Source: an uncultured Bdellovibrionales bacterium (GTDB lineage: Bacteria > Patescibacteriota > Minisyncoccia > Moranbacterales > UBA1568). From it: 64,000 nucleotides of DNA. Of the stretch, positions 570-46,157 are shown piece after piece. Below the pieces are notes generated by a model. The model was not told the DNA's origin, did no database searches, and saw nothing but the letters and a program-made list of their open reading frames with translations. The stretch's first letter is position 1, and each line of letters begins with the position of its first letter. The position numbers and the translations under genes were made by a program. The stretch covers positions 156,246 through 220,245 of the forward strand of contig CAZTBI010000001.1 in NCBI GenBank assembly GCA_964612055.1, given 5' to 3'.

Positions 570-1715
570 ATGAAAATCGTTTTTATCTCAGGAATGTTGC
601 CATCAGGACACTACTCGCAGTATGTAACGGGTGGTTTGGTTGAGCATCAGGATATAGAACTCGTGGTGTACGCTGACAAGAATCCGAAGAATTTGGAGAT
701 CAAGAACTGCGGAACCATCAAAACCGTTTGGTCAAAGTCTCTTCGCTATATTTTCGAGATTTTGAGAGAGATTAAGAGAGACAGACCTGATGTTGTGCAT
801 CTCCAGCACGAACTGAATATGTACGGAGGTATTCTGACAGCCAGTCTTTTTCCTTTGTTGGTTATTGCTCTCCGGTTACAGGGGATTCGAGTGGTGACGA
901 CTGTGCACGCAGCGGTTTTCAGACGACAGGTGGACGATGCTTTTATGAAGCTCTTTCATCAGGACTCACCGCTCCTTCGACCCTTTATGTTGACGTTCTT
1001 TTTTCACTACGTCTATAAAATGATCTCACTTTTTTCTCATGCGCTTATTGTGCATACACATCTGACCAAGGAGATTCTGGTGACGGATTATGGTGTTGAT
1101 CCGAAAAAGGTAAATGTGATTCCAATCGCAATTCCGCAGAGAGAAATCAATAACTCCCAAAAAGAGAAGTATTTTTTCTACTTTGGGTACATGGTACGGC
1201 GGAAGGGACTCGGCTTTGCGCTTGAAGGCTTCCGACGTTATATTGAGGAAAACCCGGGGAGTGACTACAAGTTTGTCTTGGCTGGAGGGGTCATCAAGGG
1301 TCAAGAAAAAGCTTACGACGAGATTGTGCAGATCATCAAGGACAATCGTCTCGAGGAAAAAGTGATTGTGAGAGGTTTCATTGAGCAGGAGGAACAGGAT
1401 GATTTGTATGAGAAAGCGTACACAGTCGTGATTCCAGCGGTGGTTTCTATGGGATCAAGTGGCCCACTCTTTCACTCGGTTAGCTATGGCAAGGCGGTTA
1501 TTTGTTCGAAGATAGGACACTTTCTCGAGGATATTGAGGATGGCAAGACGGGGATTTTGACCGATAATGATCGTTTCCATGAAGCATTTAAGTTTGCAGC
1601 TGAGCATCCTGAAAAAATAGCAGAAATTGAGAAAAATATTGAAATGAAAGCGCGCTCACGTAGTCCATATGCAACGACAGAGCAGTATCTATCACTCTAT
1701 AAAAAATCCGTGTAA
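570..1715 (+). CDS. glycosyltransferase family 1 (GT4)
   Basis: 381 aa; C-terminal GT-B/GT4 signature (GSSGPLFHSVSYGKAVICSKIGHF.ED...GIL), typical EX7E-type retaining glycosyltransferase. Confidence 0.75.
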   Translation: MKIVFISGMLPSGHYSQYVTGGLVEHQDIELVVYADKNPKNLEIKNCGTIKTVWSKSLRYIFEILREIKRDRPDVVHLQHELNMYGGILTASLFPLLVIALRLQGIRVVTTVHAAVFRRQVDDAFMKLFHQDSPLLRPFMLTFFFHYVYKMISLFSHALIVHTHLTKEILVTDYGVDPKKVNVIPIAIPQREINNSQKEKYFFYFGYMVRRKGLGFALEGFRRYIEENPGSDYKFVLAGGVIKGQEKAYDEIVQIIKDNRLEEKVIVRGFIEQEEQDDLYEKAYTVVIPAVVSMGSSGPLFHSVSYGKAVICSKIGHFLEDIEDGKTGILTDNDRFHEAFKFAAEHPEKIAEIEKNIEMKARSRSPYATTEQYLSLYKKSV

Positions 1716-4593: not shown

Positions 4594-7080
4594 ATGCGGT
4601 TCCCAGTGACAAAAGTAATAATCATGCTCAGACAGCCAAAGACACTACTGTGGTTGGTGTTGGTGTTAGCCTTGTTTCTGAGGTTATGGCATATTGATAC
4701 TCGGGATATTTGGTATGATGAACTTTTGACGGTGTTGCAGTCAGAGAAGAGTATCGCAGTCATTACTAATGAAGTGCCTACACCTATTCACTACTACTTC
4801 GTCCACCTGTTTCTCTTTTTTGGGAAGAGTACTTTTATACTCGGCCTGCCTTCAGTGCTCTTTGGTCTAGCTTCGATATATATTCTTTACCGTATCGGAG
4901 CCATAGTAAAACACGAGTGGCTCGGACTCGTCTCGGCTTTTCTGCTGGCTATCTCTCCTATGCATATAGAGTTTTCTCAGCAGATTCTTTTTTTCTCGTA
5001 CGTTGTTTTTTTCTCCGTCGTCAGTCTTTACTTTATGGTAGATTTCGCTCGGGCTTTTGAACGAGGGGAGTTTCGGTGGAAAAATTTACTGTGGTTAGCG
5101 GTAGTGAACGGACTGAATATACTTACTCAGATGGTTGTTTTGGTACTGATCCCACTTCAAGGACTCTTTTTGCTCTATCTTTTTATTAAGAATCCCGATA
5201 TTTTTTTACGTTTTAAAAAATACTTTTTCTTTCTGGGTGGTACGCTACTTCTTTTTTTTGGAGTAATACTATTTATCGGTGGCGGCGGGTACGCCAGTTT
5301 TCTTGATAAGTTGAGAGTGGATTTCGACAAGCCGCTTACGGTGGGATATTCATTATCACACGCTCTCGGCTCAACAGTACTGACTTTCAATGAGGATTTC
5401 TATCGAGCGATGTTTTCATGGTTCGGTATTGGAGATGGATATGGACTTTTGGTGTATGGGATCTTCTTTTCGGTAGGTCTCGTGACCCTTCTTATCTCAC
5501 CTAGCTCTCGATCATTGGCCCTATTTTTTCTCTTATGGGTAGTCGGTCCCTTTGCATTTCTCTTCACTGTGAGGTTAGATCATTGGTTTGAGGAAAAGTA
5601 TTTTATCTTCATCATTCCAGTCTACCTTTTGTTGGTTGCCCAGGGTATCGTGTGGACAGTGGGTAAATTCAGTGAGTGGATGCAATCACGAGTAGGCTTA
5701 TCTGGATCCTGGTCTCGCCCCGCAGGCGTTTTATTGTTGCTTATCCTTATTTCTGGTCTTGCTTTGGAGCCGATACAGTCCCGGACGAGCTTTGGTTTTA
5801 CGTTTAAAGAACATGTGCACTATAGTTGGAGAAAGGTCCATCAATATCTTGCGGAAAACCTGAAGCCTGGCGAAAAGGTTTTCCTTATCAAGGGAAATAA
5901 GAGTTTTCTTGAATACTATCGTGATGCTGATGTCGTTCCATACGAAATTCTTGATGAGAATGATATCGCTTTGATGAGCACGGACCAGTACGATGAGTTT
6001 GTACGAACACAGCCCACAAATTATTTTGTTTCTATCCCGGACTACAACTATCTTTTTTTGAGCGCTTTGACCGAATGGAAAAAGATAAAGATGGTAGGAA
6101 ACTTCGGTATTTACCAGATTACGTTTAATAAAAGTGGCTCTATTAAGCCGAAGGTTGAGGATGGTCAATGGGTATACTACGAGGATTTTCGCACCTCACA
6201 ATTTATTTCTCAGGCGAAGAGGTGGAGTAATATGGCTACATCGTATGCGGATGCAGTGCCATTATCTGAGATTGAAGGGTATAACGTGTTGAAGCCTCTT
6301 CGGGCGGAAGCCTCCTTTATAGACTACAAAATCACCCTGCCAGAAAACACGAATGGTTTTTATTTTCAATCCCTTTTTTCTCTAGAGAAGGGAGCGCGAT
6401 TTCAGGTGCTGCTTGGTGAGAGCGAAGAGGGACTCAAGCCTATTTATGAGCAAGGGGCTGATCATTTCTCTTATTTTCAGCCAGTCATAAAAGTTCCTTA
6501 TGTTACCAAAAAATCGAATACGGTTTTTTTGCGTCTCCGTTTTGATTTTGATGACCAGTTTGAGGGCGCGGTAGAGAGGGTACGACTGAAATCATTTGAG
6601 CTTTCGAATCATACGGGTGAGGGGGTTCCCTTTCCGAAAGGGTACGTAGTACAGAAAAAAAATGCGTCTACTGAGTACGTATATAATGCCACGCTGGAAA
6701 TTGAAAAGAGTAGCAAATGGACGAGAGCTGCGGTACAGAAGGATGGATGGCTGCAGACGAATGATGGCTTTCTAATAAGAAATCATGGCACGAAAGAGGG
6801 AAATCCACTCGTGTTTCGTTTTGAACTTGATAAAAAAAGATATAATGGTAAGCTGGAATTCAAGGGTTTTGGGCATCATGCTAACCCCATTGACATTTTT
6901 GCGAGTACTGACGGGAAGAGCTGGACTGCTCTTGGACGGGCAGATGAGAACCTTTTCAAAGTGTATTCATTTGAGTTTCCTGATATTACTACCGGAGGGT
7001 GGTATCTCAAATTCGTTTCAGAAAGCGTCGGTCCAACGAGTCAGATTCGAAATATTCAGGTTTCGTTTACAGAAGAGTAA
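4594..7080 (+). CDS. GT-C family glycosyltransferase (ArnT/PMT-like) with C-terminal discoidin/F5-8-type-C-like domain
   Basis: 828 aa; 11+ TM helices; N-terminal DxxYDE loop motif typical of GT39/GT83; C-terminus (STDGKSWTALG...WYLKFVSESVGP.SQIRNIQV) resembles F5/8 type C carbohydrate-binding domain. Confidence 0.65.
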   Translation: MRFPVTKVIIMLRQPKTLLWLVLVLALFLRLWHIDTRDIWYDELLTVLQSEKSIAVITNEVPTPIHYYFVHLFLFFGKSTFILGLPSVLFGLASIYILYRIGAIVKHEWLGLVSAFLLAISPMHIEFSQQILFFSYVVFFSVVSLYFMVDFARAFERGEFRWKNLLWLAVVNGLNILTQMVVLVLIPLQGLFLLYLFIKNPDIFLRFKKYFFFLGGTLLLFFGVILFIGGGGYASFLDKLRVDFDKPLTVGYSLSHALGSTVLTFNEDFYRAMFSWFGIGDGYGLLVYGIFFSVGLVTLLISPSSRSLALFFLLWVVGPFAFLFTVRLDHWFEEKYFIFIIPVYLLLVAQGIVWTVGKFSEWMQSRVGLSGSWSRPAGVLLLLILISGLALEPIQSRTSFGFTFKEHVHYSWRKVHQYLAENLKPGEKVFLIKGNKSFLEYYRDADVVPYEILDENDIALMSTDQYDEFVRTQPTNYFVSIPDYNYLFLSALTEWKKIKMVGNFGIYQITFNKSGSIKPKVEDGQWVYYEDFRTSQFISQAKRWSNMATSYADAVPLSEIEGYNVLKPLRAEASFIDYKITLPENTNGFYFQSLFSLEKGARFQVLLGESEEGLKPIYEQGADHFSYFQPVIKVPYVTKKSNTVFLRLRFDFDDQFEGAVERVRLKSFELSNHTGEGVPFPKGYVVQKKNASTEYVYNATLEIEKSSKWTRAAVQKDGWLQTNDGFLIRNHGTKEGNPLVFRFELDKKRYNGKLEFKGFGHHANPIDIFASTDGKSWTALGRADENLFKVYSFEFPDITTGGWYLKFVSESVGPTSQIRNIQVSFTEE

Positions 7081-43436: not shown

Positions 43437-44543
43437 CTACTTTTTCACAAACGACTGAAGAATTTCAATATAGCGCCGGGCAATGGTGTCCCATTCAAAA
43501 TGTGCCTTGGTGTAGAGACGAGCTCGCTTTCCTAAAGTATGACGTCTCTCTTCATCTAAAACAAGATCAGTAATAGCTTTTCTGAAAGCCTCGGGGTTTT
43601 CCGGCTCTACCAAGAGGCCGTTTTCATTTTGGTGAATGGCATCCTTCAGCCCTTCAAGATTGGAAACGATGACAGGGAGTTCACATGAGGCTGCCTCGAT
43701 GACGGAGATGCCAAAGCCCTCCATATCACCGGCTACTTTTATGTTGGGCTGGATAAAGATATCACAGGTATTCAAGAGGACATCACGTACGTCATCTGAA
43801 ACATACCCGAGAAGTTTCACGCAATGAGCTGAATTTGTTTCTTTCACCGCCTGTTCAATATCTTTCCTATCGATACCGTCGCCAGCCACAACATAGAGAA
43901 TATTTTCTGGGAGTTTCGGGATAACGTTTCGTATGAACCAAGCAACACCTTTCCGTTTGGCAAGTCGGCCGGAGGTAAGAAGAACGTATTTGTTTACAAG
44001 AGAAAGATTTAGTATTTTCTCCAACTCCTCACGGGTATGAGGTTTGAAGTATTTCTCGGTATCAACTCCATTCGGAATAAAAGTGAACTTGGTCTCTGGA
44101 ATGCCTCGAGCTACACCCTGACGGATTGTTTCATTGCCAACCGCGATTAAGCCGTCGAGCGCTGGAAGGAATTTTTTGATCCACAAGCGTTGATAGATAT
44201 TGATTAGTGCTTTTTCATACCAGAGACCAAGTGACTTTGAATCATAGTTGATGTCTATTCCGTGAACGACAGAAACCACGGGAAGTGGAGTCATTTTTTT
44301 TAAGAGCCAGCCAATGAGTCCAAGGGTACCGTCACCGAGTAAGACGATATCATAAGAGCGAGCCTGCCACAAAGCGACTAAGAGAGCGTAGGGGGCAAAA
44401 AGAGGAAGAAAAAAACGTCCGTGTCGATTGGCTATAGTTTTGGTTTCGGCGTGCTGAGCGAGCCATACCGAAAGGGCATAGTTCTGATTCTCAATACCGC
44501 CCGTAATAGGCGGATAAGCCCTGGAAATAAAGAGAATTCGCAT
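43437..44543 (-). CDS. glycosyltransferase family 1 (GT4)
   Basis: MRILFISRAYPPITGGIENQ N-terminus; EX7E region GDMEGFGISVIEAASCELPVIVS. Confidence 0.8.
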   Translation of the reverse strand: MRILFISRAYPPITGGIENQNYALSVWLAQHAETKTIANRHGRFFLPLFAPYALLVALWQARSYDIVLLGDGTLGLIGWLLKKMTPLPVVSVVHGIDINYDSKSLGLWYEKALINIYQRLWIKKFLPALDGLIAVGNETIRQGVARGIPETKFTFIPNGVDTEKYFKPHTREELEKILNLSLVNKYVLLTSGRLAKRKGVAWFIRNVIPKLPENILYVVAGDGIDRKDIEQAVKETNSAHCVKLLGYVSDDVRDVLLNTCDIFIQPNIKVAGDMEGFGISVIEAASCELPVIVSNLEGLKDAIHQNENGLLVEPENPEAFRKAITDLVLDEERRHTLGKRARLYTKAHFEWDTIARRYIEILQSFVKK

Positions 44544-44603
44544 GAGACAGAGAGGGAAACTTATGGCTTAATTATAGCTTTTTTTTGTTGTTTTGTCAGC
44601 GTA

Positions 44604-44632
44604 TTGACTTTTATGCCAAAAAAGTGCATAAT
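44604..44632 (+). promoter_or_regulatory. sigma70-like promoter (-35 TTGACT, 17-nt spacer, -10 CATAAT)
   Basis: Read directly; positioned about 65 nt upstream of alpha-CTD-like gene ATG. Confidence 0.45.
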
Positions 44633-44698
44633 ACAAAGTTCGTTTACAACATGCGAATTTTCGCACCCGCGCCTCGGGGTCTGGGGTATGGAGCAAGT

Positions 44699-45046
44699 AT
44701 GAACACTGCAAAACGCGCGACTGAAGAAGCGGTGGCGATGCAATCTTTGGGGCATGATCTATTACGTCAGCTTGCTCACATCGAAGAGCAGATCGACCAC
44801 ATGAGACGGTCAGTCTACTCTGTCCTTGGACTAGCTGACAAGCCGGAACTTCGCCCCATTGAAGATCTGGGTCTGACGAAACGGACAGCGAATGTTTTGA
44901 AAGCTGAAAAGATTTACTGTATTGCCCAGCTAGATCGGCTTACCCAGCCTCAACTTCTGAAGATTCCAGGGATGGGCCGTAAGGGACTTGAGGAAATTGA
45001 GGCAACGCTGACTCTTCACCGTTCTTGGCTCGGAACTGATGGTTAG
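44699..45046 (+). CDS. stand-alone RNA polymerase alpha-subunit C-terminal-domain (alpha-CTD) homolog
   Basis: LRPIEDLGLTKRTANVLKAEKIYCIAQL...LLKIPGMGRKGLEEIE aligns residue-for-residue with RpoA alpha-CTD ([20 protein letters not shown].I...LLKTPNLGKKSLTEI); no alpha-NTD; GGAG RBS 6 nt upstream of ATG 44699. Confidence 0.75.
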   Translation: MNTAKRATEEAVAMQSLGHDLLRQLAHIEEQIDHMRRSVYSVLGLADKPELRPIEDLGLTKRTANVLKAEKIYCIAQLDRLTQPQLLKIPGMGRKGLEEIEATLTLHRSWLGTDG

Positions 45047-45154
45047 TTGTTGGCCGTACTGTGAAATCTTGGGGAAGGACGTGAAATACATGGACTTCTC
45101 CGCATCTTTGAGTACTGGTTTACGAACGAGTTTTCAAGAATGAATCAAGAAAAA

Positions 45155-45185
45155 CCCCTGATCAAAAAGATAAGGGGTTTTTTCT
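45155..45185. terminator. bidirectional rho-independent terminator
   Basis: AAAA-CCCCT-(13-nt loop)-AGGGG-TTTTTTC between convergent genes. Confidence 0.55.
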
Positions 45186-45203
45186 TGTCTAAGAAGCTAA
45201 AAG

Positions 45204-46157
45204 TTATTTCTTGTAACGTTCTTTTCTCATTTGGTACATGAGATCTTCGGTCAGCTTTCGATTACTCTTGATCATATCGGCAATAAAGGCAAAGATCAGG
45301 AGCTGGATGCCGATGATGAAGAGGATACTTGAGGAAAGGAGGTAGTTGAGATAGGGCGTCACTTTGAAACCGCTTCCAAGGTATTGCACGAGGAAAGCAA
45401 GAAAACCGAAGAAGGCAATAAGAATCAGAATGAGACCAGGGAAGCCAAAAAATTTCATTGGGCGGACGTCACGTACCGCTTTTAGAATGATACGAGCACT
45501 GTTATTGACGAAGCTATAGACACTCTTTACAATCTTTGATTTTCGATCGGCGAAGTATGTTACCTGAACTGGTACCCAGAGGACGCGAAGATTTTTTCCG
45601 ATAGCGTCAATAATCGTTTCCTGGGTGTAGGTAAAGCCAGTAGGGGTATTGAGGCGGAGTAATGTTTCACGGCTGTGGGCGCGAAAGCCACAGGTGAGAT
45701 CATCGGTTTTGACGTTTAAGAAAGAACCAACAAGTGATGCCCCTAAACGATTGAAGAAATCCTTGATCCAAGGGATGTTTTTAGCGCTCGACTCAGAAAA
45801 TCTGTCACCAACAACCATGTCGGCCTGATTGTTCAGTACTGGATCGATCAGTTTTTGAATCTCACCTGAATCAAATTGGCCATCAGCGTCGATGTTTACC
45901 ATGATGTCAGCGCCTTCTTTTAAGGCGTTTTCACTGGCGGTAGCAAACATCGCTCCTAGACGACGATTGATTCCGTGTTTCAAAACGAAGTCAGCACCTG
46001 CTTCCTTGGCGACGTCTGCGGTACGATCTGTCGAGCCATCATCAACCACTTGCACCAATACTTCATCCACACCGGTAAAGTGGCGGGGCATATTCTGGAT
46101 TGTCTTTCCGATGACAGTCTCTTCGTTGAAAGCTGGGATGTTGATGATGAGGCGCAT
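45204..46157 (-). CDS. polyprenyl-phosphate glycosyltransferase (GtrB/DPM1-like GT2)
   Basis: INIPAFNEE...VVDDGSTDRT, DADGQFD, C-terminal TM pair; 317 aa. Confidence 0.8.
   Translation of the reverse strand: MRLIINIPAFNEETVIGKTIQNMPRHFTGVDEVLVQVVDDGSTDRTADVAKEAGADFVLKHGINRRLGAMFATASENALKEGADIMVNIDADGQFDSGEIQKLIDPVLNNQADMVVGDRFSESSAKNIPWIKDFFNRLGASLVGSFLNVKTDDLTCGFRAHSRETLLRLNTPTGFTYTQETIIDAIGKNLRVLWVPVQVTYFADRKSKIVKSVYSFVNNSARIILKAVRDVRPMKFFGFPGLILILIAFFGFLAFLVQYLGSGFKVTPYLNYLLSSSILFIIGIQLLIFAFIADMIKSNRKLTEDLMYQMRKERYKK

What the first reader, a model, noticed from the sequence alone, without database searches (positions are those of the whole stretch)
44604..45046. Free-standing RNA polymerase alpha-CTD homolog with its own strong promoter
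The 115-aa product aligns along its C-terminal about 65 residues with the DNA- and activator-binding alpha-CTD of RpoA. It conserves the helix-hairpin-helix elements R-[ST]-AN-[CV]-LKAE and LLK-x-P-x-[LM]-G-[KR]-K. It has no alpha-NTD, and about 50 unrelated N-terminal residues. It is expressed from a near-consensus sigma70 promoter (TTGACT-17-CATAAT) in a divergent intergenic region and ends in a clean bidirectional terminator. A solo alpha-CTD could compete for UP elements or activator surfaces as a transcriptional modulator. It could also be the missing CTD of a split alpha subunit.
Basis: partly seen in the sequence, partly recalled or inferred. Interest (0 to 1): 0.5.

Follow-up and report, generated by a model that had tools for sequence, protein, structure and literature searches.

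The report
Strain-specific solo RNA polymerase alpha-CTD gene cassette
A small gene in a Candidatus Moranbacteria genome really does encode a stand-alone copy of the DNA-binding tail domain of RNA polymerase subunit alpha, but it is an optional 655-bp cassette that sister strains lack, so it is an accessory (probably transcription-modulating) gene and not a missing piece of the polymerase.

Summary
ORF 44699-45046 (+) encodes 115 aa. Residues 51-111 are a true alpha-CTD: PF03118 scores 49.7 bits against a cut-off of 23.8, and the AlphaFold model superposes on E. coli alpha-CTD at 0.5-0.8 A. The R265, N268, G296 and K298 equivalents are conserved. Residues 2-42 form one long orphan helix. No alpha-NTD is present.

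The main new result concerns context. The gene sits on a 655-bp unit (44549-45203), antisense between the GT2 and GT4 genes of a glycosylation operon. Four sister strains have flanks 96-99% identical and only 7 bp at this junction. More distant lineages carry the same frame there (promoter block, structured 3' element, terminator) around unrelated orphan genes of 490 and 240 aa. The gene is therefore exchangeable accessory cargo, which rules out a split alpha subunit.

Stand-alone PF03118 proteins are common in public data: thousands in metagenomes, named examples in Planctomycetota, tailed phages and one plasmid. I found no functional study of any of them.

The most likely function is inferred, not shown: a free, possibly dimeric alpha-CTD binds A/T-rich DNA or alpha-CTD partners and modulates transcription.

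Novelty: new member of a known, uncharacterised kind. Interest is moderate.

The parts
44549..45203 (.). 655-bp cassette present in this strain only. It replaces 2 nt of the 7-bp GT2-GT4 junction (TAA|TCGTCTC|ATG) found in sister strains.
   Evidence: blastn and junction read-out against L069-L072; flanks 96-99% identical
44571..44599 (-). Outward-facing promoter CTGACA-17-TATAAT that reads into the GT4 gene. It would restore GT4 transcription downstream of the cassette's terminator.
   Evidence: 11 of 12 match. Conserved as GTGAC[GA]-17-TACAAT in L075 and L089. The same -10 and leader motif recurs at 61862-61885.
44604..44632 (+). Promoter of the alpha-CTD gene, TTGACT-17-CATAAT, back to back with the outward promoter (4 bp between the two -35 hexamers).
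   Evidence: 10 of 12 match. TTGACT, the 17-nt spacer and [CT]ATAAT are kept in the L075 and L089 cassettes.
44690..44693 (+). Shine-Dalgarno GGAG, 5 nt upstream of the ATG.
   Evidence: read from the sequence
44699..45046 (+). ORF of 115 aa plus stop: the solo alpha-CTD protein (P0001).
44702..44824 (+). Residues 2-42: a single long alpha-helix with no detectable homolog and a 4-3-4-3 hydrophobic spacing from L21 to V42. It may be a coiled-coil or partner-binding helix.
   Evidence: AlphaFold2 helix 2-42, pLDDT 72-85. Heptad test 0.78 against 0.61 +/- 0.09 in shuffles, p about 0.05. No homology.
44849..45031 (+). Residues 51-111: the alpha-CTD fold. R62, N65, G93, K95 and K88 correspond to E. 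coli R265, N268, G296, K298 and K291.
45070..45142 (+). Conserved 3' element between the stop codon and the terminator. It is predicted to form two hairpins on the cargo strand and is shared by cassettes carrying unrelated cargo.
   Evidence: 78-87% identical to L089 and L075, while the coding flanks are 74-77% identical. Consensus fold of three sequences. No Rfam match to the L075 and L089 copies.
45146..45187 (.). Bidirectional intrinsic terminator: hairpin between an A-run and a T-run. It ends both the alpha-CTD transcript and the incoming GT2 transcript.
   Evidence: Fold of 45130-45200: dG -22.2 and -21.9 kcal/mol, z -4.4 on both strands. Stem sequences differ among the cassettes; one pair changes on both sides and stays paired.
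45204..46157 (-). Flanking GT2 glycosyltransferase gene (317 aa), upstream in the operon.
   Evidence: PF00535; cluster members
43437..44543 (-). Flanking GT4 glycosyltransferase gene (368 aa), downstream in the operon.
   Evidence: PF00534 and PF13439; cluster members

Best explanation
SHOWN. The locus is a 655-bp self-contained transcription unit, inserted antisense between the GT2 and GT4 genes of a conserved cell-envelope glycosylation operon in a Candidatus Moranbacteria (CPR/Patescibacteria) genome. In order, it contains:
- an outward promoter that reads into GT4;
- a back-to-back promoter for the cargo gene;
- a Shine-Dalgarno sequence and a 115-aa ORF;
- a conserved, apparently structured 3' element;
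- a bidirectional terminator.
The protein is one long N-terminal helix (residues 2-42), an 8-residue linker and a canonical RNA polymerase alpha-CTD fold (51-111). It has no alpha-NTD, so it cannot be built into the RNAP core. The unit is accessory. Sister strains lack it precisely. Other lineages carry the same frame at the same junction around unrelated orphan genes.

INFERRED. The main DNA-contact residues of the alpha-CTD '265 determinant' are kept (R265, N268, G296, K298, plus K291). The protein therefore most likely binds the minor groove of A/T-rich, UP-element-like DNA as a free domain. It may act as a dimer through the N-terminal helix, imitating the two tethered CTDs of the alpha dimer. 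In that case it would compete with, or substitute for, RNAP alpha-CTD at such sites and shift promoter usage. Its own A/T-rich divergent promoter region would be one possible target. Tailed phages encode solo alpha-CTD proteins of the same size, and the unit has the layout of a phage 'moron', so a phage or mobile-element origin is plausible.
For: Domain and fold.

Conserved DNA-contact residues: the ungapped alignment to E. coli alpha-CTD gives R62=R265, N65=N268, G93=G296, K95=K298 and K88=K291. The roles of these residues come from established E. coli alpha-CTD genetics and the CAP-alphaCTD-DNA structures, and are not tested here. R62 is nearly invariant, and G93 and K88 invariant, across 11 non-RpoA alpha-CTD proteins.

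No NTD.

N-terminal helix; heptad pattern.

Expression signals: with conservation across homologous cassettes.

Accessory status:
- Empty 7-bp junction in L069-L072, with 96-99% identical flanks.
- Empty 33-bp and 76-bp junctions in other lineages.
- The same frame around a 490-aa orphan (L075-L082) and a 240-aa orphan (L089, L090).
- Cargo proteins are unrelated to one another.
- An identical GT2 protein (P0306) flanks both empty and filled alleles.

Phage and mobile parallels:
- BFVD solo alpha-CTD proteins of 105-150 aa, including Mycobacterium phage Mithril.
- A 105-aa alpha-CTD gene between the terminase and major-head genes on an IMG/VR contig.
- A 135-aa helix-plus-alpha-CTD protein among phage-like genes.
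- A plasmid example next to a DNA methyltransferase.
Against: Nothing here shows expression, DNA binding or dimerisation.
- C269 and S299 of the 265 determinant are replaced by V and G. The sigma-contact residue E261 is G. The CAP-contact 287 determinant is mostly changed. Behaviour may therefore differ from a real alpha-CTD.
- The heptad signal is marginal (p about 0.05).
- Only one allele exists in public data, so purifying selection cannot be tested.
- GC3 of the gene (0.47) is like that of its neighbours. There was no phage or plasmid DNA match and no PHROGs or PADLOC match. A phage origin is therefore only an analogy.
- Whether Moranbacteria promoters use UP elements at all is unknown.
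Confidence: 0.45

Rival explanations
1. Protein decoy or adaptor. The free alpha-CTD works mainly through protein contacts. It would titrate factors that normally dock on RNAP alpha-CTD: activators, Spx-like or NusA-like proteins, or phage proteins that bind or modify alpha-CTD. This would blunt their action, and it could serve as anti-phage protection or, if phage-derived, as a host take-over tool.
For: The fold is intact. The gene sits in a strain-variable slot that also holds foreign-looking orphan genes of 59-63% GC between flanks of 51-53% GC. This is the kind of place where conflict genes accumulate. Phages carry similar proteins.
Against: The known protein-contact patches are the least conserved parts: E261 is G, and the 287 determinant is changed. 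The DNA-contact residues are the best conserved. No PADLOC or PHROGs match was found for this protein or for the other cargos.
Confidence: 0.2
2. Young or decaying orphan. The ORF would be a recently captured 3' piece of some rpoA-like or phage gene. It is carried in the slot and perhaps transcribed, but it has no selected function.
For: It is a singleton: one strain only, with nearest relatives no more than 56% identical and only within the CTD. The slot turns over cargo and can degenerate; L085 is rearranged and has a broken GT4.
Against: The reading frame is intact, with a Shine-Dalgarno sequence. The fold is confidently predicted. Functional residues are conserved at positions that are invariant or nearly so in the solo family. 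There is no NTD or linker remnant. Promoter and terminator are intact.
Confidence: 0.15
3. Dedicated local regulator. The protein would bind the A/T-rich back-to-back promoter region of its own cassette and tune GT4 and downstream glycosyltransferase expression, along with its own.
For: The arrangement is divergent, with only 4 bp between the two -35 hexamers. Each promoter's upstream A/T-rich zone overlaps the other's core. Small regulators are often encoded divergently from their targets.
Against: Cassettes with the same promoter frame carry unrelated cargo with no DNA-binding domain hit. The frame therefore does not depend on an alpha-CTD protein. Empty alleles run the operon without any of it.
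Confidence: 0.12
4. Split alpha subunit. The genome's rpoA would lack a CTD, and this protein would supply it in trans.
For: Only the architecture: a CTD without an NTD, plus an extra helix that could in principle dock on something.
Against: Sister strains lack the gene. No second copy exists in the 15-billion-protein collection. tblastn found no copy in the other Moranbacteria loci fetched for the GT2/GT4 slot, about 230 kb. The gene is not near ribosomal-protein genes; the whole window is glycosylation genes. The N-terminus shows no similarity to the alpha-NTD or linker. The genome's own rpoA could not be inspected with the tools at hand.
Confidence: 0.02

Closest known systems
C-terminal domain of bacterial RNA polymerase subunit alpha (RpoA alpha-CTD; E. 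coli residues about 249-329; PDB 1LB2, 3K4G, 3N97)
   Same: Same Pfam family and fold (rmsd 0.5-0.8 A over 58 residues). Ungapped alignment at 47-48% identity to the E. coli alpha-CTD chains. The R265, N268, G296, K298 and K291 equivalents are kept.
   Different: It is not attached to an alpha-NTD, so it is not an RNAP subunit. E261, C269, S299 and most of the 287 determinant are changed. It carries an unrelated 42-residue N-terminal helix, and it is encoded on an accessory cassette rather than in the ribosomal-protein/alpha operon.
Phage-encoded stand-alone alpha-CTD-domain proteins. Examples: UniProt A0A6J5L490 (131 aa, uncultured Caudovirales), A0A5Q2WLP1 (Mycobacterium phage Mithril, 149 aa), A0A2P1JY10 (Rhodococcus phage Finch). 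All are uncharacterised.
   Same: Similar size (105-150 aa) and plan: an N-terminal extension followed by one alpha-CTD. The best match is 42% identical over 60 columns at rmsd 1.5 A. On IMG/VR contig L073 such a gene sits as an extra gene between the terminase and major-head genes.
   Different: This one lies in a bacterial operon, not in a recognisable phage or prophage. It shares no sequence with them outside the CTD, and it has no PHROGs family match.
Short PF03118-only proteins of Planctomycetota and metagenomes (about 85-220 aa, many about 93 aa), usually labelled 'DNA-directed RNA polymerase subunit alpha' or 'hypothetical protein'
   Same: Stand-alone alpha-CTD proteins sharing the LLKIP[GN][MF]G signature. 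3,598 proteins reached E <= 0.001 in the profile search.
   Different: They are only 35-53% identical, and only within the CTD. Most lack the long N-terminal helix. Their genomic contexts were not examined. None has a known function.
Plasmid-borne 'DNA-directed RNA polymerase subunit alpha C-terminal domain-containing protein' WP_024542472.1 (Ralstonia mannitolilytica pRMAN01, 234 aa)
   Same: A non-RpoA alpha-CTD protein on a mobile replicon, next to a DNA methyltransferase and a phage-type gene. It is 41.5% identical over residues 49-113.
   Different: It is twice as long, has a different N-terminal part, and belongs to a different phylum and context.
Phage 'morons' (extra genes with their own promoter and terminator, inserted between two genes that are adjacent in related genomes)
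   Same: The layout matches: own promoter, own terminator, and an insertion between genes that are adjacent in relatives. GC content is slightly higher than in the flanks.
   Different: The host is a bacterial chromosome operon, not a phage. The unit also supplies an outward promoter for the downstream gene. The same frame is reused for different cargo at a single site.

Membership tests
Pfam PF03118 RNA_pol_A_CTD (domain family) | Profile score above the curated gathering threshold | tested here: met
   49.7 bits against a threshold of 23.8, E=3.1e-13, residues 52-105 matching HMM positions 13-66 of 67
Pfam PF03118 RNA_pol_A_CTD (domain family) | Compact helical alpha-CTD fold with two helix-hairpin-helix motifs | tested here: met
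   AlphaFold2 block-mean pLDDT 85-93 over most of the domain. Foldseek to E. coli, Synechococcus, Streptomyces and Bacillus alpha-CTDs gives rmsd 0.5-1.1 A, TM(target) 0.69-0.92.
Pfam PF03118 RNA_pol_A_CTD (domain family) | DNA-contact '265 determinant' (R265, N268, C269, G296, K298, S299) | tested here: met
   Four of six are identical (R62, N65, G93, K95); C269 is V and S299 is G. This tests residue conservation only; binding was not tested.
RpoA, RNA polymerase subunit alpha (NCBIfam TIGR02027 equivalog) | Alpha-NTD (PF01193/PF01000) that dimerises and assembles beta and beta' | tested here: not met
   No NTD in the protein or anywhere in the window. The N-terminal 48 residues add nothing to the RpoA profile score.
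RpoA, RNA polymerase subunit alpha (NCBIfam TIGR02027 equivalog) | Full-length score above the equivalog cut-off | tested here: not met
   44.3 bits against a cut-off of 227.8
RpoA, RNA polymerase subunit alpha (NCBIfam TIGR02027 equivalog) | Universally present core gene within a lineage | tested here: not met
   Absent from four sister strains at this locus, and absent from the protein collection apart from this strain
Split alpha subunit (CTD supplied in trans) | The genome's rpoA lacks a CTD | not testable with these tools
   rpoA is not in the window. The source genome is not among the species representatives that were scanned.
Phage moron-like autonomous gene unit | Own promoter and own terminator flanking a single gene | tested here: met
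   Predicted and phylogenetically conserved signals. Transcription was not measured.
Phage moron-like autonomous gene unit | Inserted between genes that are adjacent in related genomes | tested here: met
   GT2 and GT4 are 7, 33 or 76 bp apart in relatives
Phage moron-like autonomous gene unit | Resides in a phage or prophage genome | tested here: not met
   The surroundings are glycosyltransferase and sugar-nucleotide genes. There is no phage DNA or PHROGs match.
Integron-type gene cassette | attC-like recombination site and a nearby integron integrase | not tested
   No recombinase appeared among the neighbours scanned with Pfam, but the window was not scanned exhaustively. The conserved 3' element was not compared with attC models.

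The most novel reading that the evidence does not exclude
The GT2|GT4 junction of this Moranbacteria operon may be a dedicated, integrase-independent cassette slot. A conserved frame (divergent promoters, a structured 3' element and a bidirectional terminator) would let unrelated foreign genes be swapped in and expressed without silencing the operon. The alpha-CTD cargo would be a mobile decoy alpha-CTD that reprograms transcription, or counters or serves phages, by occupying UP-like DNA or capturing alpha-CTD-binding factors. If so, free alpha-CTDs would be a widespread, unrecognised class of transcription modulators, represented by thousands of uncharacterised proteins in Planctomycetota, CPR bacteria and phages.
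Probability: 0.15. Interest if true: 0.75.

Novelty: new member of a known kind. Interest (0 to 1): 0.45.

Why it matters
Alpha-CTD is the RNA polymerase module that reads UP elements and receives most class I activators. A cell or phage that makes extra, untethered copies could retune promoter usage globally. Thousands of such proteins exist in databases, and I found no functional study of any of them. This example is well suited to a first test. The protein is small, its DNA-contact residues are intact, and natural strains with and without it are otherwise nearly identical. It could be assayed directly on E. coli UP-dependent promoters.

Separately, the variable slot has a conserved expression frame inside a CPR surface-glycan operon. 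It is a neat case of how tiny, streamlined genomes take up and express accessory genes without breaking an operon.

Tried and rejected
- Homology of the N-terminal helix to the last helix of the alpha-NTD or to the linker. This was suggested by a 'TEEAV' versus 'PEEAI' resemblance and by TIGR02027 aligning residues 19-106. Rejected: phmmer of residues 1-50 against 157 proteins of RpoA-like length (295-350 aa) gives E > 0.03, and the native N-terminus scores no better than shuffles against an RpoA profile.
- A sigma-70 region-4-like HTH in the N-terminus. This was suggested by alignment A1 and by genuine r4 plus alpha-CTD fusions such as P0049. Rejected: Pfam reported only PF03118 for this protein even with the E-value limit at 10, and AlphaFold predicts one continuous helix.
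- A defence-system or phage-family label. PADLOC and PHROGs gave no hit for this protein; PADLOC and Pfam gave none for the other cargos.
- Phage or plasmid origin by DNA or protein search. There was no DNA match in phages. The protein matches in phage and plasmid collections were nearly all bona fide rpoA genes in mislabelled or chromosomal records, apart from one Ralstonia plasmid gene.
- The exact 20-mer of the 3' element found on viral contig L107. It is a chance match inside an unrelated coding region.
- Many 'short' hits in the 1.84-billion-protein search are truncated or chimeric gene calls of proteobacterial RpoA. They were not counted as solo proteins.
- A profile search seeded with proteobacteria-like CTDs returned only Betaproteobacteria RpoA and was uninformative.
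- Searches that returned nothing usable: the look-up of encoding contigs for P0001; the JGI metagenome scan with the single protein; the afdb50 fold library, which was unavailable.
- Literature searches for stand-alone alpha-CTD proteins found nothing relevant.
- Population variation in the gene. The two Logan contigs are 100% identical to the window.
Full report
**1.

The + strand ORF 44699-45046 (ATG, 115 aa) is preceded by GGAG at 44690-44693. Pfam gives a single hit, PF03118 RNA_pol_A_CTD: E=3.1e-13, 49.7 bits against a gathering score of 23.8, residues 52-105. NCBIfam rpoA models match only through this domain and fall far below their cut-offs; TIGR02027 scores 44.3 against 227.8.

phmmer against PDB sequences finds RpoA chains only. 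The best are Xanthomonas (8e-12) and the isolated E. coli alpha-CTD chains 1lb2_B and 3k4g_A (about 3e-11). These alignments are ungapped, so protein residue n corresponds to E. coli alpha residue n+203.

An AlphaFold2 model (mean pLDDT 81.3) shows one long helix (residues 2-42), a short linker and a four-helix alpha-CTD (51-111). Foldseek superposes the C-terminal part on E. coli alpha-CTD structures at 0.5-0.8 A rmsd over 58 residues.

**2. It is solo, and it is not a broken rpoA**

tblastn with a full-length RpoA (P0106) finds only the CTD in the whole 64-kb window. The first about 50 residues have no relatives. A word-indexed search of 5.8 billion clusters returned only the protein itself and one 126-aa protein that is similar in the CTD alone. 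An exhaustive HMMER search of 1.84 billion representatives gave 1,075 hits, all through the CTD. Against a profile of 21 diverse RpoA-length proteins, the native protein scores 61.3 bits. Versions with a shuffled N-terminus score 61.6 +/- 1.7. No trace of the NTD or linker therefore remains.

**3. Expression signals**

It lies back to back with a minus-strand promoter, CTGACA-17-TATAAT (44599-44571, 11 of 12), that points into the GT4 gene. Consensus matches alone are not unusual here: 5 were found and 4.0 +/- 1.9 expected. The better evidence is that both promoters keep their hexamers and 17-nt spacers in homologous cassettes from distant lineages.

The terminator is a hairpin at 45146-45187, between an A-run and a T-run. 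Folding the 71-nt stretch that holds it gives dG of about -22 kcal/mol and z = -4.4 on both strands. Stem sequences differ among the homologous cassettes. In the three-sequence fold one stem pair changes on both sides and keeps pairing, and four other predicted stem pairs are broken in one sequence.

**4. Organism and neighbourhood**

Cluster mates of the flanking proteins at 90% identity or more are named 'Candidatus Moranbacteria bacterium' (MBP9698239-46). The only relative among the species-representative genomes is a different solo alpha-CTD gene in a Candidatus Moraniibacteriota MAG.

Most of the ORFs scanned with Pfam across the window are glycosyltransferases, sugar-nucleotide enzymes, a Wzy-like ligase and related functions. 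There are no ribosomal-protein genes and no rpoA.

**5. The key new result: the gene is optional cargo in a variable slot**

*Sister strains lack it.* Four Logan contigs from other samples (L069-L072) match the window at 96-99% nucleotide identity on both sides. In them the GT2 stop and the GT4 start are separated by TAA|TCGTCTC|ATG. The window has 655 bp (44549-45203) in place of 2 nt.

*Other lineages are also empty.* More distant lineages have junctions of 33 bp (L083, L084, L086-L088) or 76 bp (the 15 loci among L091-L105 that reach the junction).

*Some lineages are filled with different genes.* The junction then holds, again antisense to the operon:
- a 490-aa orphan in L075-L082, from eight samples;
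- a 240-aa orphan in L089 and L090;
- a rearranged 226-aa plus 103-aa version in L085.

These cargo proteins are unrelated to the alpha-CTD protein and to each other, except that the 240-aa and 226-aa proteins are 84% identical. None has a Pfam or PADLOC match.

*The non-coding frame around the cargo is homologous.* The promoter block is about 75% identical, and a 73-nt element between the stop codon and the terminator (window 45070-45142) is 78-87% identical. The coding flanks are only 74-77% identical.

*Both states occur within one population.* An identical GT2 protein (P0306) flanks both empty and filled alleles. A related MAG has its contigs broken exactly at this junction (partial MBP9698243 and MBP9698244).

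I cannot tell whether insertion or deletion produced each state. Either way the alpha-CTD gene is dispensable and exchangeable. Because the cassette's terminator would cut the operon transcript, its outward promoter plausibly restores GT4 expression. A near-identical -10 and leader motif also precedes ORF 61899, so this promoter is of a native type.

**6.

The split-alpha idea is effectively excluded. A polymerase component would not be missing from sister strains or from the 15-billion-protein collection. The genome's own rpoA could not be inspected with these tools.

The modulator idea remains the best reading, and it can be made more precise.
- The residues that contact DNA in E. coli alpha-CTD are kept: R265, N268, G296, K298 and K291. 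R62 is nearly invariant, and G93 and K88 are invariant, across 11 non-RpoA alpha-CTD proteins.
- The sigma-contact residue E261 is replaced by G. The CAP-contact patch (E286, V287, E288, R317, L318) is not conserved.

This favours a DNA-directed role over mimicry of an activator target.

The N-terminal helix has a 4-3-4-3 hydrophobic spacing from L21 to V42. The heptad score is 0.78 against 0.61 +/- 0.09 in shuffles, p about 0.05. It could make a coiled-coil dimer that presents two CTDs as the alpha dimer does. That step is an inference only.

**7. Comparison with what is known**

Stand-alone and repeated alpha-CTD modules are abundant in public data.
- A profile of solo-type sequences retrieves 3,598 proteins at E <= 0.001. 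Most are 85-220 aa with PF03118 only. The named ones come from Planctomycetota and are labelled 'RNA polymerase subunit alpha' or 'hypothetical'.
- Other architectures include tandem arrays of up to 11 repeats (P0004), sigma-70 region 4 plus alpha-CTD fusions (P0049, P0359, P0360), and HTH_17 plus alpha-CTD (P0374).
- Tailed phages encode solo alpha-CTD proteins of 105-150 aa, including Mycobacterium phage Mithril (BFVD).
- On an IMG/VR contig a 105-aa alpha-CTD gene sits between the terminase and major-head genes.
- A 135-aa helix-plus-alpha-CTD protein lies among phage-like genes.
- A Ralstonia plasmid carries a 234-aa example.

Full-text searches found no paper on the function of any of these.

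The protein is therefore a new, singleton member of a known but uncharacterised kind. What is new here is its setting.

**8. Limits**

- No expression, binding or oligomerisation data exist.
- Only one allele is known; the two Logan contigs are 100% identical to the window. Selection therefore cannot be measured.
- GC3 (0.47) resembles that of the neighbours, and no DNA match links the cassette to a phage or plasmid. A mobile-element origin is an analogy.
- The structured 3' element rests on three distinct sequences. The fold shows G-U changes and only two pairs with changes on both sides. The L075 and L089 copies have no Rfam match.

**9. Verdict**

- Best explanation: an accessory, strain-variable cassette expresses a free alpha-CTD that most likely binds A/T-rich DNA and modulates transcription. 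The anatomy is well supported; confidence in the mechanism is about 0.45.
- Novelty: new member of a known kind.
- Interest: 0.45.

Noticed in passing
window 45070-45142 (+); L075 about 5000-5100 (-); L089 about 1320-1420 (-): A 73-nt non-coding element lies between the cargo stop codon and the terminator. It is 78-87% identical across cassettes with unrelated cargo, which is more than the coding flanks (74-77%). It is predicted to form two hairpins on the cargo strand, with G-U changes and one changed-on-both-sides pair in the first hairpin. The L075 and L089 copies have no Rfam match. It could be a 3'UTR stability element, a small RNA or a recombination site.
   Followed up: partly
L075 5154-6626 (-); L089 1479-2201 (-); L085 5075-5755 and 6001-6312 (-): The same GT2|GT4 junction holds other antisense orphan genes in other Moranbacteria lineages: 490 aa, 240 aa, and 226 plus 103 aa. 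Their GC content is 59-63% between flanks of 51-53%. None has a Pfam or PADLOC hit. In L085 the locus is rearranged and GT4 is reduced to a 126-aa fragment.
   Followed up: partly
window 61862-61885 (promoter reads on +), upstream of ORF 61899-63422: A 24-nt motif, AAAAAGGCTATAATTAAGCCATAA (-10 plus leader), repeats the cassette's outward promoter at 44561-44584. All 21 specified positions are identical; the three degenerate positions were allowed to vary. The chance expectation is 0.00. This suggests a stereotyped native promoter and leader in this genome.
   Followed up: partly
window 21627-23681 (+): A 684-aa gene with a HATPase_c_3 domain has only 33.7% GC (GC3 0.30) in a 45% GC window. 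This is the clearest compositional outlier here, and the gene is probably foreign.
   Followed up: no
proteins P0004, P0005, P0006 (metagenomic; not in the window): Some proteins are built almost entirely of tandem alpha-CTD repeats. P0004 (1,031 aa) has 11 PF03118 stretches scoring 452 bits, and others have 4 repeats. An array of UP-element-type DNA readers of this kind has no described function.
   Followed up: no
proteins P0049, P0359, P0360; loci L059 3497-4270 and L064 4207-4833: Some proteins fuse a sigma-70 region-4 HTH (PF04545, PF08281) to one to three alpha-CTD domains. These two modules sit side by side on UP/-35 DNA in the holoenzyme.
   Followed up: partly
L073 4986-5303 (+), IMG/VR contig IMGVR_UViG_3300047408_000089: A 105-aa solo alpha-CTD-like gene lies between the terminase large subunit gene (phrog_9, E=3e-169) and the major head/protease gene (phrog_617), which is a classic moron position.
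   Followed up: partly
L003 9647-10219 (+), Candidatus Moraniibacteriota MAG JAQTRS010000002.1: A second, unrelated solo alpha-CTD gene from the same candidate phylum lies between polA and a DEAD-box helicase gene. It shares the KIPGMGRK motif with the window protein (44% identity over the CTD) but has a different N-terminal part.
   Followed up: partly
L005, L007-L011, L013-L019 and others (JGI/ENA metagenome contigs): A large group of 307-aa full-length RpoA proteins has a CTD that starts PIEDL[GN]LTARTANAL, close to the window protein's PIEDLGLTKRTANVL (40-46% identity over the CTD). Their taxon could not be determined with the tools available.
   Followed up: no
Candidatus Moranbacteria MAG proteins MBP9698243.1 and MBP9698244.1: In a related MAG, two contigs end inside GT2 (183-aa partial) and GT4 (123-aa partial). 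The assembly therefore breaks exactly at the variable slot, as expected if the sample held mixed alleles.
   Followed up: no
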